A stretch of 64,000 nt of DNA, taken from contig OX597817.1 in NCBI GenBank assembly GCA_951406725.2, positions 77,190,001-77,254,000 of the forward strand, given 5' to 3'. A program made the position numbers and the translations under genes. This DNA is from Octopus vulgaris. Its lineage: Eukaryota. A model generated the notes under the pieces. That model ran no database searches and was not told where the DNA came from. It saw nothing but the letters and a program-made list of their open reading frames with translations. Position 1 is the first letter of the stretch; each line of letters starts with the position of its first letter. Shown here in pieces: positions 47,143 to 51,663 of the stretch.

Positions 47143-47301
47143 AAACATGTGTGTGTGTGTGTACATACATGTACATATTTACACATACATCTAAATGTAG
47201 AGAGAGAGAGAAAGAGATGGAATAATTACTCTCATCATGGAGCAGTTCTATTCTGGAAACAAGAAAAAGATTAAAGATAGTGTCCCCATTGTAAACCTTA
47301 C

Positions 47302-47337
47302 ACCTTCTGCAATACTACTGATTTTTTTGTCCGTGAA
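47302..47337 (-). CDS. Candidate 36-nt symmetric exon (phase 2 SRTKKSVVLQK or phase 0 FTDKKISSIAEG)
   Basis: Acceptor gatgtttctccaaaag|, donor |gtaagg. Confidence 0.25.
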
Positions 47338-47489
47338 CTTTTGGAGAAACATCAATTTTAAGCATCAAGCATAATCCCTTTGCATCCTGTTTTTCTTTTG
47401 ATAAATATATATATATGTATAAATATTTTGTTTTCTGAAATGAGATAAAAACCCAAGGGTGTGTAGATTTAGAACATTTATAGACAGAA

Positions 47490-47539
47490 GGTCTTACAGC
47501 TGTTTCCAGGATATTTATTATATCCCTTGATCGGAGACC
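47490..47539 (-). ncRNA. Minimal type-I hammerhead ribozyme, core degenerate (Penelope-type)
   Basis: Minus strand: GGTCT-CCGATCA-AGGGATAT AATAA ATATCCTG-GAAAC AGCT GTA-AGACC. Perfect 5-bp stem I, long stem II, palindromic stem III (ACAGCTGT), GUA triplet; CUGAUGA carries two substitutions. Confidence 0.7.
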
Positions 47540-47604
47540 GTGTGAGAGGATGGTTAAGTAATAGTTAATTTAGATAAGATACAAAATAGAGAGTGAGGTG
47601 GAGG

Positions 47605-47640
47605 AAAGAAAATAGATGTGAGATGTGTAGGGCTATTGTG

Positions 47641-47695
<55 letters not shown>

Positions 47696-47806
47696 CTTAT
47701 TAAAAAAATGGTTTATTAGCAACTATAACCTAAAGGCAAAATTATTTTAGTATATTCGGTACTGACAAGTACCCTATATCACTTCTGTGATCTCTGTTAA
47801 TTTTGC

Positions 47807-47863
<57 letters not shown>

Positions 47864-48686
47864 TATGTGTATATAAACGTGTATGTGTGTGTGCGTGCGT
47901 GCAAAGTATACCCAATAGATAATGGCAGTAAAAATATTAAGAATTACATCCCAACAACAGCAGCACCACCAACAAGAACAACCATAATAACAATAGTCAT
48001 TAGTAAAAACTATTAGAAAAACTCTTGCAATGATGGTGATGATGATGATGATGATGATAAAAGTAAGTAGTGATGGTGCTGACTTTTGGCACCAAATATT
48101 GGCATTGGGTTGTATAAGGTGATGTTAGTGAACTACCAGAGGAAGATATTCCACATTACTTCCAGCAGTCACCGCCAAAATATTCAAGAGTTAAAAAAAT
48201 ATGTATATTTTTAAATGTTAAATTAAAAAGAAAATAACACAAAATTTACAGTAACAAAAACAAAAAAAAGATGTCAATATTACAAAGACTTGAAATTTGT
48301 TGCGAAAGTAAATCGTAAACAGAATATATAAGTTTGTACATCTATGTGTATATATATATATATATATACACACATTCATACATATGTACATATTCTTTAC
48401 TCTTTTACTTGTTTCAACCATTTGACACAGGCCATACTGGAGCACTGCCTTTAGTCGAGCTAATCGACCCCAGGGCTCATTCTTTGTAAGCCTAGTACTT
48501 GTTCTATTGGTCTCTTTTGCCGAACTGCTAAGTTACGGGGGACGTAAAAACACCAGCATTGGTTGTCAAGTGATGGTGGGAGGACAAACAAAGACACACA
48601 CACACATATGATGGGCTTCTTTCAGTTTCCATCTACCAAATTCACTCACAAAACTTTGGTCAGCCCGAGGCTTTAGTAGAAGACAA
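47605..48686 (+). repeat. Source copy of a 1.09-kb local direct duplication
   Basis: Near-identical to 49771-50861 apart from about five point differences and microsatellite lengths. Confidence 0.95.
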
Positions 48687-48771
48687 TTGCCCAATGTGCT
48701 ATGCAGTAGGACTGAACCCAGAACCATGTGGTGGGTAAGCAAGCTACTTACCACACAGCCACTCCTGCGCT
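48394..48771 (-). mobile_element. SINE family B, full length
   Basis: Tail through CCACACAGCCACTCCTGCGC head. The duplicated copy at 50565-50861 lacks the head. Confidence 0.9.
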
Positions 48772-48982
48772 TATATATATATATAAATCTGTGTCTATAT
48801 ATATGTATGTACATATATATGTATATGAGTATATATACATATATATATATATAATTACGTATATATATTTATTTATAAGAAAATGAGGTTACAAAGGAAT
48901 GAACGATTATCTTATGAGCTTCATTAGCTTACAGCTATTTCTAGTGGACTCAGTTGAGTGCCTGAGAGACACATTATCTACA

Positions 48983-49013
<31 letters not shown>

Positions 49014-49637
49014 TTGTTATTACACTAGAATAAGAGAGAAAGAAAGAGAGGAATATAAAGAAGACATCATACAAAGCAGTTATGCATGGTGAATAAATTT
49101 TTGTGTATAATTTAAAAACTTAGGACAAAGCCACAAAAGTATAACCAATTAATTTAACTCCTAAAATATTAGTAGTATTTGTTTGATCAACTTTGAAAGG
49201 ATAAAAAGCAAAGCTAAATCTGATGGTATTTAATTAAAAGCAAAATATATATATACATATATATATATACAGAGGAATACATCTAAATTTTTAGATTTCT
49301 GTTATTATTCCATCAACCCCAGAAGCAAATTTAAGTTTGATAGATTTCATCAACTGAGGATATAACAAAACATTTTATCCTGTCGTCAAAGTATTCAGTT
49401 ATCCAATCTAATACTTACCAGCATATCACTGGTACTTATTTCACTGAATCCCAAAGGAACATGTGTATAATGAAAAATTTTACTCTAAGATAAGCTGTAA
49501 TGCTGAGTGTAGAGCAAAGTATCCATCTGCTAAGTATGATCCAAGGATCCAATATATATATTTGTTGTCCACGGAGCTAAGCCCTTTTTGGATGCAAGTT
49601 CATCAATCACTCTGTGACTGGAAATATACTTAACTGC

Positions 49638-49664
<27 letters not shown>

Positions 49665-49675
<11 letters not shown>

Positions 49676-49820
49676 GAAATGAAGAAAACGCTGACAAATA
49701 ATTGAAGTAATTTAAGTAATTTAATTAGGTGAAAGTTCTTTTTACCGGTTGCGCATTTGTTATGCTTATCAAAGAAAATAGATGTGAGATGTGTAGGGCT
49801 ATTGTGTGTATATATACATA

Positions 49821-49879
<59 letters not shown>

Positions 49880-49991
49880 ACTTATTAAAAAAATGGTTTA
49901 TTAGCAACTATAACCTAAAGGCAAAATTATTTTAGTATATTCGGTACTGACAAGTACCCTATATCACTTCTGTGATCTCTGTTAATTTTGC

Positions 49992-50034
<43 letters not shown>

Positions 50035-50958
50035 TATGTGTATATAAACGTGTATGTGTGTGTGCGTGCGTGCAAAGTATACCCAATAGATAATGGCAGT
50101 AAAAATATTAAGAATTACATCCCAACAACAGCAGCACCACCAACAAGAACAACCATAATAACAATAGTCATTAGTAAAAACTATTAGAAAAACTCTTGCA
50201 ATGATGGTGATGATGATGATGATGATGATAAAAGTAAGTAGTGATGGTGCTGACTTTTGGCACCAAATATTGGCATTGGGGTGTATAAGGTGATGTTAGT
50301 GAACTACCAGAGGAAGATATTCCACATTACTTCCAGCAGTCACCGCCAAAATATTCAAGAGTTAAAAAAATATGTATATTTTTAAATGTTAAATTAAAAA
50401 GAAAATAACACAAAATTTACAGTAACAAAAACAAAAAAATGATGTCAATATTACAAAGACTTGAAATTTGTTGCGAAAGTAAATCGTAAACAGAATATAT
50501 AAGTTTGTACATCTATGTGTATATATATATATATATATACACACATTCATACATACGTACATATTCTTTACTCTTTTACTTGTTTCAACCATTTGACACA
50601 GGCCATACTGGAGCACTGCCTTTAGTCGAGCTAATCGACCCCAGGGCTTATTCTTTGTAAGCCTAGTACTTGTTCTATTGGTCTCTTTTGCCGAACTGCT
50701 AAGTTACGGGGGACGTAAAAACACCAGCATTGGTTGTCAAGTGATGGTGGGAGGACAAACAAAGACACACACACACACACATATGATGGGCTTCTTTCAG
50801 TTTCCATCTACCAAATTCACTCACAAAACTTTGGTCAGCCCGAGGCTTTAGTAGAAGACAACAAATGCGCAACCGGTAAAAAGAACTTTCACCTAATTAA
50901 ATTACTTAAATTACTTCAATTATTTGTCAGCATTTTCTTCATTTCCTTTTTTATATAT
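49665..50958. mobile_element. Duplicated segment (49771-50861) bracketed by ~95-bp inverted repeats (49665-49761 and 50860-50958)
   Basis: AAAAGGAAATGAAGAAAACGCTGACAAAT...TTTACCGGTTGCGCATTTGTT is the reverse complement of 50860-50950 with one mismatch. Both arms abut TA repeats. Confidence 0.85.
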
Positions 50959-50987
50959 CACCACTCGTGTTCGACATCTCCTTTTTT

Positions 50988-51029
<42 letters not shown>

Positions 51030-51459
51030 ATTTAAAACTGCTTGATTTGGCTCCATGCCACTTCAGGTTTTGCAGACCCTTTCCTGGATTTCTCCATTTG
51101 GCAATCCAGATGCTTGACAGGGTCGGGCTCCTACTAGAGACCCACATTACTTGATGTAGCACAGACCCAAATCATACTGTTTTAAATAATACATTAATAT
51201 ATGTAACTCTGATTGAATGTGCTGAGTGCACTTTCCTTTTGTTTATATATATGTATGTATATATATTACCCATAAATTAAATAGAGAGATACAATTGGCA
51301 ATCTAATAATTTATTTATATTATAATATAACATAATATGCTATGAATATAATATAATATAATATGAGATAACAAAAAAAATCATTAAAAAACCAAACAAG
51401 CCAACAATTTGTTTCGACTTATATACATTATTTGATTTATAAACAATTCAATTCACTAT

Positions 51460-51663
51460 GGTTTAAATACACAACTGAAAGAGCTATAGTTTTATGCTTT
51501 TATGATACTTGAACGAGCATATTTATAAGAAGCGCCATGGTATCTTAAAGCAATCTTTCAGGCTCTGTTTGTGTGTTACATGGCGTATTTTATAAACATG
51601 CCTATTGAAGTATCATGAAAGCATGAAACTATTCATAGCTTCTTTCAGTTGTGTATTTAAATT
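51460..51663. other. ~200-nt foldback with ~80-bp arms and a 39-nt loop
   Basis: 51462-51539 pairs with 51579-51661 (TTTAAATACACAACTGAAAGA.. / ..TCTTTCAGTTGTGTATTTAAA; inner CGCCATG / CATGGCG). Confidence 0.85.

What the first reader, a model, noticed from the sequence alone, without database searches (positions are those of the whole stretch)
49665..50958. Neighbouring 1.09-kb segment captured between inverted copies of a hammerhead-bearing repeat end
Seen: 49771-50861 is a direct copy of 47605-48686. The copy truncates a SINE that is complete in the source, which fixes the direction of copying. It is bracketed by ~95-bp inverted repeats that are absent from the source. The inner ends of the arms read (T)GATAA-GCAT AACAA ATGC-GCAAC CG GTA-AAAAG, a hammerhead-like motif with palindromic ACCGGT. 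One junction falls in the CUGA box and the other in the stem-II loop with 2-nt microhomology. Known: Penelope-like elements make inverted terminal repeats. Inference: RT template switching or gap repair by a PLE-type element created a Pack-TE-like unit, a possible route to local sequence or exon duplication.
Basis: partly seen in the sequence, partly recalled or inferred. Interest (0 to 1): 0.75.

Follow-up and report, generated by a model that had tools for sequence, protein, structure and literature searches.

The report
Penelope insertion holding copied neighbouring DNA
A young Penelope-like jumping gene landed in a TA repeat as its usual pair of back-to-back stubs, but with a 1.1-kb copy of DNA from 1-2 kb away between them, likely copied from the broken chromosome end while the gap was closed; this is a rare by-product of a kind known for other retrotransposons, not a new mobile unit.

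Summary
49771-50861 copies 47605-48686 (4 substitutions in 1068 aligned bases) between 99-nt inverted arms. The arms are the 3' end of a young Penelope-like element (RT plus GIY-YIG; 313 exact tail matches in the genome) that inserts into (TA)n. The right arm carries the ~30-nt PLE tail and the left lacks it. About 135 of 178 sampled insertions show this head-to-head pair, and this is the only one with more than 40 nt of foreign filler. Two other insertions carry 0.6-kb inverted and 3.7-kb direct copies of their own flank ending at the target repeat, so 3 of 178 duplicated local DNA. The copied core occurs only twice in the genome, so it is not a Pack-type mobile unit. The hammerhead-like motif has U3-A8 but C at core position 13 and a weak stem I. 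Junctions follow a family-wide cDNA end point, not the predicted cut site. Best reading: DNA-templated repair synthesis while joining two cDNA-capped ends. Read support is untested (the contig test failed its control). The scan noted similar captures in other genomes. Verdict: larger-scale variant of known templated insertions.

The parts
47605..48686 (+). Source of the copied segment (non-coding: microsatellites, unique spacer, repeat fragments)
   Evidence: alignment; core found only here and in the copy
47470..47640 (.). High-copy repeat, whole in the source, cut at 47605 in the copy
   Evidence: 2171 candidates, best 93-96% over the full length
48396..48770 (-). SINE-like repeat, whole in the source; the copy lacks its first ~84 nt (head)
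   Evidence: (I1, D17); the SINE label is from resemblance, not a library match
48687..49639 (.). Single-copy spacer between source and insertion site, not duplicated
49640..49669 (.). (TA)n target, left half
   Evidence: same context in family members
49663..49773 (-). Left arm: inverted PLE 3' end without tail, starting at the family's fixed inner start point; last 3 nt shared with the source
49743..49772 (-). Hammerhead-like motif (U3-A8, stem II GCAU/AUGC, C13, palindromic ACCGGU); 5' strand of stem I lost
   Evidence: no hammerhead family among Rfam matches at E<=10
49771..50861 (+). 1.09-kb direct copy of 47605-48686
50860..50988 (+). Right arm: direct PLE 3' end starting in the stem-II loop, with tail
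50959..50988 (+). PLE tail (~30 nt), on this arm only; in tandem copies it runs on into the element's 5' end and ORF1 start
   Evidence: (L066)
50989..51025 (.). (TA)n target, right half (first bases shared with the element)

Best explanation
This is one insertion of a young Penelope-like retroelement into a (TA)n repeat, with a 1.09-kb copy of nearby DNA between its two inverted arms, and the copy was likely made by DNA-templated repair synthesis while the two new ends were being joined. Shown: family identity, arm asymmetry, target, local source, direction of copying, 2-3-nt microhomologies. Inferred: the element's endonuclease cut both strands in (TA)n, and its RT extended both 3' ends from two fixed start points on the RNA (tail and no-tail), running off near the RNA 5' end. 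Normally host end joining fuses the two cDNA tips into a ~230-bp hairpin. Here the right cDNA tip probably annealed by 2 nt to exposed flank DNA ~950 nt left of the break, was extended 1.09 kb away from the break, let go, and joined the left cDNA tip through AAA. The polymerase is not identified.
For: Parent ORF: Pfam RVT_1 E 2.9e-07 and GIY-YIG E 2e-04 (22.0 bits, just under the 22.6 cut-off). About 135 of 178 distinct tail-bearing insertions have an inverted partner arm (138 flagged, 3 dropped as single-motif false hits); whole inverted arms start at the same reference point. The anole PLE cleaves and extends both strands from two RT start sites that define the tail (PMC11167929). In 61 short hairpin junctions, 31 overlap by 1-4 nt, 5 are blunt and 25 have inserts; 11 inserts of 5-27 nt are largely copies of junction-adjacent sequence, as described for end-joining templated insertions (PMC7165422). 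Two more local copies: L036, 624 bp inverted, running through the (TA)n and continuous with a second tail arm; L102, 3.7-kb direct duplication from the (TA)n to the arm fragment, 2-nt microhomology. Inverted-in-cis and direct-in-trans is the geometry given for resected-end templates (PMC7165422). Age matches: arm against arm 65/24846 = 0.26% over 107 insertions; source against copy 0.37%, 0.34% and 0.53%.
Against: Pol theta tracts are rarely over 10 bp (PMC7165422), so a kb tract needs a more processive polymerase or the RT itself. The two unusual L036 junctions show no clear microhomology. The focal product fits either arm as primer, and an RNA template of either strand, equally well; the DNA argument rests on L036 and L102. 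At 48110/50281 the copy has G as in runs X2-X4 while the source has T as in X1, so the template may have been the other homolog, or the assembly mixes haplotypes. The focal arms differ at 1 of 87 positions, too few to date the event. No read spans the locus.
Confidence: 0.6

Rival explanations
1. The element first inserted as a plain hairpin; the palindrome later broke at its tip and the break was patched with nearby DNA.
For: Spacer-less ~115-bp palindromes are common in the family (18 of 61 junctions are the perfect 4-nt-overlap form), and such palindromes are break-prone (own knowledge). L036 can also be drawn this way.
Against: Source-copy divergence (0.37%) is not lower than arm-arm divergence (0.26%), leaving little time gap. 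L102 has no intact left arm at its upstream (TA)n.
Confidence: 0.18
2. The element's RT ran off its own RNA and switched to a local nascent transcript, copying 1.09 kb before joining the other arm.
For: Left arm ends 2-4 nt from the family run-off point, where a switch is expected. L1 RT switches templates between RNAs (PMC11702581, passages). Host genes framed by pLTRs were read as trans-retrotransposition (PMC3846280).
Against: L036 and L102 copies end exactly in the target repeat, and L036 runs on into new arm sequence, which a pre-existing transcript would not hold. No coding exon was evident among ORFs of 75 aa or more in the window (by eye), and no splice or poly(A) mark lies in the cargo.
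Confidence: 0.15
3. Assembly artefact: merged haplotypes or a mis-join.
For: No contig in 4 runs spans the locus. Run X1 has one unbroken source-type contig (48069-48334) at about the depth of unique DNA, so X1 shows no sign of a second copy.
Against: The duplicate is bounded at both ends by family-typical arm ends with 2-3-nt microhomology; the 950-bp spacer is single; the copy has T at 50440 where runs X1-X4 have A.
Confidence: 0.05
4. Pack-TIR: a DNA transposon with ~95-bp TIRs captured the segment.
For: Near-perfect terminal inverted repeats, TA flanks, many short hairpin copies resembling MITEs.
Against: Arms are asymmetric (tail), of variable length up to 4 kb, and run into an RT/GIY-YIG ORF; the cargo is not dispersed.
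Confidence: 0.01

Closest known systems
EN+ Penelope-like element insertions with inverted 5'-truncated copy and one 30-40-bp tail (PMC8557442 passages; PMC11167929 parts 1-2 of 4)
   Same: RT with C-terminal GIY-YIG, head-to-head arms, tail on one side, partial tandems, (TA)n targets, two fixed start points
   Different: Foreign local DNA between the arms; both start points here end in ATAT-like bases that match the target, whereas the anole element starts at non-homologous sites
L1 'templated insertions' (10.1101/2024.08.27.596794, passages: 22 cases) and L1 target-site duplications and inversions (PMC11702581, passages)
   Same: Genomic DNA near the site copied into a new insertion; an SDSA-like route was proposed
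   Different: L1 cases are typically under 250 bp and within 15 bp of the site; these are 0.6-3.7 kb, the focal one 1-2 kb away, and between two cDNA arms
Host DNA captured between Penelope pLTRs in Adineta vaga (PMC3846280, passages and section 9)
   Same: Unrelated sequence framed by pLTRs, unspliced
   Different: There the cargo moved to a new site with a TSD and was read as trans-retrotransposition; here the source is adjacent and no TSD can be read in (TA)n
Pol theta templated insertions, TINS (PMC7165422, passages)
   Same: Short microhomology, direct copies in trans and inverted copies in cis, AT-rich context; the family's small junction inserts fit
   Different: TINS tracts are rarely over 10 bp
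Pack-MULE / Pack-TIR elements (recalled, no call)
   Same: Host fragment between inverted termini
   Different: No transposase family, no symmetric TIRs, no onward spread

Membership tests
EN+ Penelope-like element (parent family) | RT domain followed by C-terminal GIY-YIG endonuclease | tested here: met
   RVT_1 above cut-off; GIY-YIG E 2e-04, 0.6 bit under cut-off, motif visible
EN+ Penelope-like element (parent family) | Partial tandems and inverted 5'-truncated copies | tested here: met
   tandems L129, L148, L151, L196, L200; about 135 of 178 with an inverted arm
EN+ Penelope-like element (parent family) | 30-40-nt tail on one end | tested here: met
   29-nt extension on the direct arm; L036 and L179 have it on both arms of a hairpin
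EN+ Penelope-like element (parent family) | Single ORF | tested here: not met
   ORF1 (431 aa) overlaps the RT-EN frame; a frameshifted ORF1 is listed as an option for PLEs (PMC8557442 Fig. 1 legend)
Neptune clade | CX2-5CxxC linker before GIY-YIG and CCHH motif | tested here: met
   CX4CxxC linker, CxxC inside GIY-YIG and two downstream His in the L030 translation; features from PMC8557442
Neptune clade | RT phylogeny with Neptune references | not tested
   no reference sequences were fetched
Type I minimal hammerhead ribozyme | Core C3 U4 G5 A6 N7 G8 A9, or the U3-A8 covariant | tested here: met
   UUGAUAA; U3-A8 is reported in PLE hammerheads (PMC4209133)
Type I minimal hammerhead ribozyme | G12 A13 A14 A15 | tested here: not met
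   C13 in 254 matches and T13 in 6 in the fetched loci; genome-wide non-C variants 16 T, 2 G, 2 A; consensus from PMC3088659
Type I minimal hammerhead ribozyme | Stem II and palindromic helix III before NUH | tested here: met
   4-bp stem II in all 3 folds that hold both of its strands; ACCGGU then A
Type I minimal hammerhead ribozyme | Helix I closing the core | tested here: inconclusive
   only 2 adjacent pairs in register; fold z-scores 0.2-0.8; no Rfam hammerhead match
Type I minimal hammerhead ribozyme | Self-cleavage | not testable with these tools
   needs an in vitro assay as a dimer, with and without protein
Pack-type transposon | Captured fragment mobilised to other sites | tested here: not met
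   2 full matches genome-wide, both in this window
Pack-type transposon | Symmetric TIRs of a DNA-transposon family | tested here: not met
   arms are retroelement 3' ends
Templated insertion at a retroelement junction | Inserted segment copies local genomic DNA with short microhomology | tested here: met
Templated insertion at a retroelement junction | Made during integration | tested here: inconclusive
   divergences compatible but cannot exclude a slightly later repair

The most novel reading that the evidence does not exclude
Because Penelope-like elements cap both sides of a double-strand break with cDNA, closing the gap copies kilobase pieces of the resected flank in about 2% of insertions (3 of 178 here). 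This DNA-templated route, not retrotransposition of host RNA, would explain intron-keeping host sequence between pLTRs and make (TA)n-targeting PLEs a steady source of local duplications, exons included, in animal genomes.
Probability: 0.3. Interest if true: 0.65.

Novelty: new variant of a known kind. Interest (0 to 1): 0.38.

Why it matters
The steps after first-strand synthesis in PLE integration are stated to be unvalidated (PMC11167929). This young family records them: both ends primed, a shared cDNA end point, end-joining scars at the tip, and occasional kb-scale copies of the flank. The three captures fit a resected-DNA template, which gives a testable alternative to the RNA-in-trans reading of host capture by PLEs. 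The focal copy itself is non-coding and shows no sign of function or spread, and the scan has noted similar single cases in other genomes, which limits the surprise.

Tried and rejected
Rfam scan of 49400-51200 at E<=10: 36 matches, microsatellite-driven, no hammerhead family. Single-strand folds gave no stability signal. Sequencing runs: no RNA holder listed. Contigs of X1-X4 laid on 47200-51650 were swamped by SINE matches and none spanned the locus. The left-junction test (X1, X2, X3, X7) found no spanning contig, but the source-like half was not covered either, so the test failed its control and is not evidence. A gapped tail pattern returned mostly redundant rows. L127 looked like a capture but is element-derived. 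L166, L121 and L136 were false two-arm calls. Inverted repeats beside L040, L168 and L211 were set aside as probable hairpin insertions of other families (L040 and L168 have matches in other loci; L211 judged by eye). L176's triplicated segment does not touch the element. 0 of 11 no-tail solo arms had a host duplication at the junction. Gene context: ORFs were read by eye only; short exons would be missed. Literature: one search returned 0 papers; searches gave no paper describing local-source kb captures between PLE arms, but I read only passages of 10 papers and no supplements; figure S10 of PMC11702581 and the supplements of PMC3846280 may hold closer cases.

Full report
Observation. The segment 49771-50861 is a direct copy of 47605-48686, with 4 substitutions in 1068 aligned columns and four microsatellite-length gaps. 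It is framed by inverted arms at 49663-49761 and 50860-50958 (99 nt, 98%). Both ends of the copy cut a repeat that is whole in the source: a SINE-like element on the right and another high-copy repeat on the left. The unique core has two full-length matches in the 2.8-Gb assembly G000, the source and the copy. The junctions share AAA on the left and AA on the right with the source. An earlier scan note calls this genome octopus; I did not test that.

What the arms are. The arm search gave 691 candidates, of which 40 were scored, at about 99% identity. An exact 30-mer across the tail boundary occurs 313 times. [quoted passage not shown] In tandem copies the tail continues into the element's 5' end and an ORF1 start. 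So the right arm is the element's 3' end with its tail and the left arm is the same end, inverted, without it. Copies sit in (TA)n.

Family survey. I fetched 10 kb around 180 tail sites: the first 100 of the 313, and 80. Two were duplicates, leaving 178. This is not a random sample: it favours the larger contigs and common tail variants. About 135 have an inverted partner arm (138 flagged, 3 dropped as false). Whole inverted arms begin at one fixed point and direct arms end 29 nt further on. This matches the in vitro finding that the anole PLE cleaves and extends both strands from two start sites that define the tail (PMC11167929, parts 1-2 of 4). At the inner ends, 37 of 146 direct and 31 of 117 inverted arms stop at the same 2-nt point, 5 nt upstream of the hammerhead-like core. 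I infer this is the RNA 5' end. Of 61 short hairpin junctions, 31 overlap by 1-4 nt, 5 are blunt and 25 have inserts; 11 inserts of 5-27 nt largely repeat junction-adjacent sequence, and 4 longer ones are alignment leftovers of element sequence. The focal insertion (L107) is the only one of the 135 with more than 40 nt of non-element filler between its inner arm ends.

Other captures. Self-comparison of all 178 loci found two more host copies that end at an element junction. In L036 a no-tail arm joins a 624-bp inverted copy of upstream host DNA that runs through the (TA)n and into a second tail arm (2 differences in 588). In L102 a 3.7-kb direct duplication starts at the (TA)n and ends on an arm fragment with 2-nt microhomology (18 differences in 3390). 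A 138-bp copy from 1.1 kb away lies inside the TA flank of L060 and may be a fourth. None of 11 no-tail solo arms showed this. The count is 3 of 178, limited to sources within the fetched windows.

Mechanism. All three can be drawn as a 3' end priming on single-stranded flank DNA next to the break, extending away from it, releasing and rejoining at the tip: in cis gives the inverted copy (L036), in trans the direct copies (L102, focal). That geometry is the one described for templated insertions at resected ends (PMC7165422, passages), though those tracts are rarely over 10 bp, so the polymerase here is open. L036 and L102 end in the target repeat, and L036 runs on into new arm sequence, which argues against a pre-existing RNA template. 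The focal case alone cannot tell DNA from RNA. Arm-against-arm divergence is 0.26% (65 of 24846, 107 insertions) and source-against-copy is 0.34-0.53%, compatible with one event but not excluding a slightly later repair at the hairpin tip. Against a simple picture: at 48110/50281 the copy has the base seen in runs X2-X4 while the source has the base seen in X1, so the template may have been the homolog or the assembly mixes haplotypes.

Hammerhead. The motif has hammerhead spacing, a 4-bp stem II and a palindromic helix III, with the U3-A8 covariation reported for PLE ribozymes (PMC4209133, passages). It has C at position 13 in 254 matches, against the consensus A (PMC3088659, passages), a weak stem I, no fold signal and no Rfam match. 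It is likely a degenerate or protein-dependent motif. Neither junction lies at its predicted cut site.

Assembly check. No long reads were available. Contigs did not span the locus, and the junction test failed its control. The structure argues against an artefact: family-typical arm ends on both sides, microhomology at both joints, a single-copy spacer, and a base in the copy not seen in four runs. Run X1 shows no sign of a second copy, which would fit a polymorphic insertion but is unproven.

Comparison and verdict. Inverted arms with one tail are standard for PLEs. Host DNA between pLTRs is reported in Adineta vaga (PMC3846280, passages and section 9), and local templated insertions are reported for L1 (22 cases, typically under 250 bp and within 15 bp; 10.1101/2024.08.27.596794, passages). 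The cases here are larger and have a visible adjacent source. My searches found no paper on this for PLEs, but I read passages only and no supplements. PMC13282606 and 10.64898/2026.07.22.740005 (passages) added nothing on capture. The scan has unchecked notes of similar captures in other genomes and of two-ended priming in this genome. It works like a templated insertion at a twin-primed retroelement junction; it is not a Pack-type element. Interest 0.38.

Noticed in passing
L148 and 10 other fetched loci (L030, L045, L065, L066, L083, L129, L138, L151, L196, L200): The element has a 431-aa ORF1 overlapping the RT-EN frame, with a T-TTT-TTA heptamer in the overlap in all 11 loci that matched. 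This looks like a -1 ribosomal frameshift site (slippery-heptamer pattern recalled).
   Followed up: partly
window 50950-50995; L066 tandem junction: Both apparent RT start points follow a CCTTTTT run and end in ATAT-like bases that match the (TA)n target, unlike the non-homologous priming reported for the anole element.
   Followed up: partly
L002, L017, L035, L094, L098, L112, L139, L146, L159, L186: A variant with an extra ~40 nt upstream of the motif has a second cluster of cDNA ends at another GATAAG word, suggesting an alternative RNA 5' end.
   Followed up: no
L022, L067, L142, L176: Hairpin centres hold fold-back pieces from 350-700 nt inside the element, symmetric on both arms, suggesting a spliced or looped-out template or a shared template jump.
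   Followed up: no
L060 (G000:C2, tail at 114148737): A 138-bp exact copy of a LINE-like ORF piece from 1.1 kb downstream sits inside the TA run beside the tail.
   Followed up: partly
L062, L108, L169, L175, L029, L049: Other repeat families in these loci carry U3-A8 hammerhead motifs with intact GAAA, several with a clear stem I.
   Followed up: no
L213-L215: A related subfamily has T at core position 13 and also forms inverted pairs.
   Followed up: no
L036, L179, L065/L066: Some insertions have the tail on both arms of a hairpin.
   Followed up: no
L121, L123, L126, L169, L173: Tail-only insertions of about 35 nt in TA or similar repeats.
   Followed up: no
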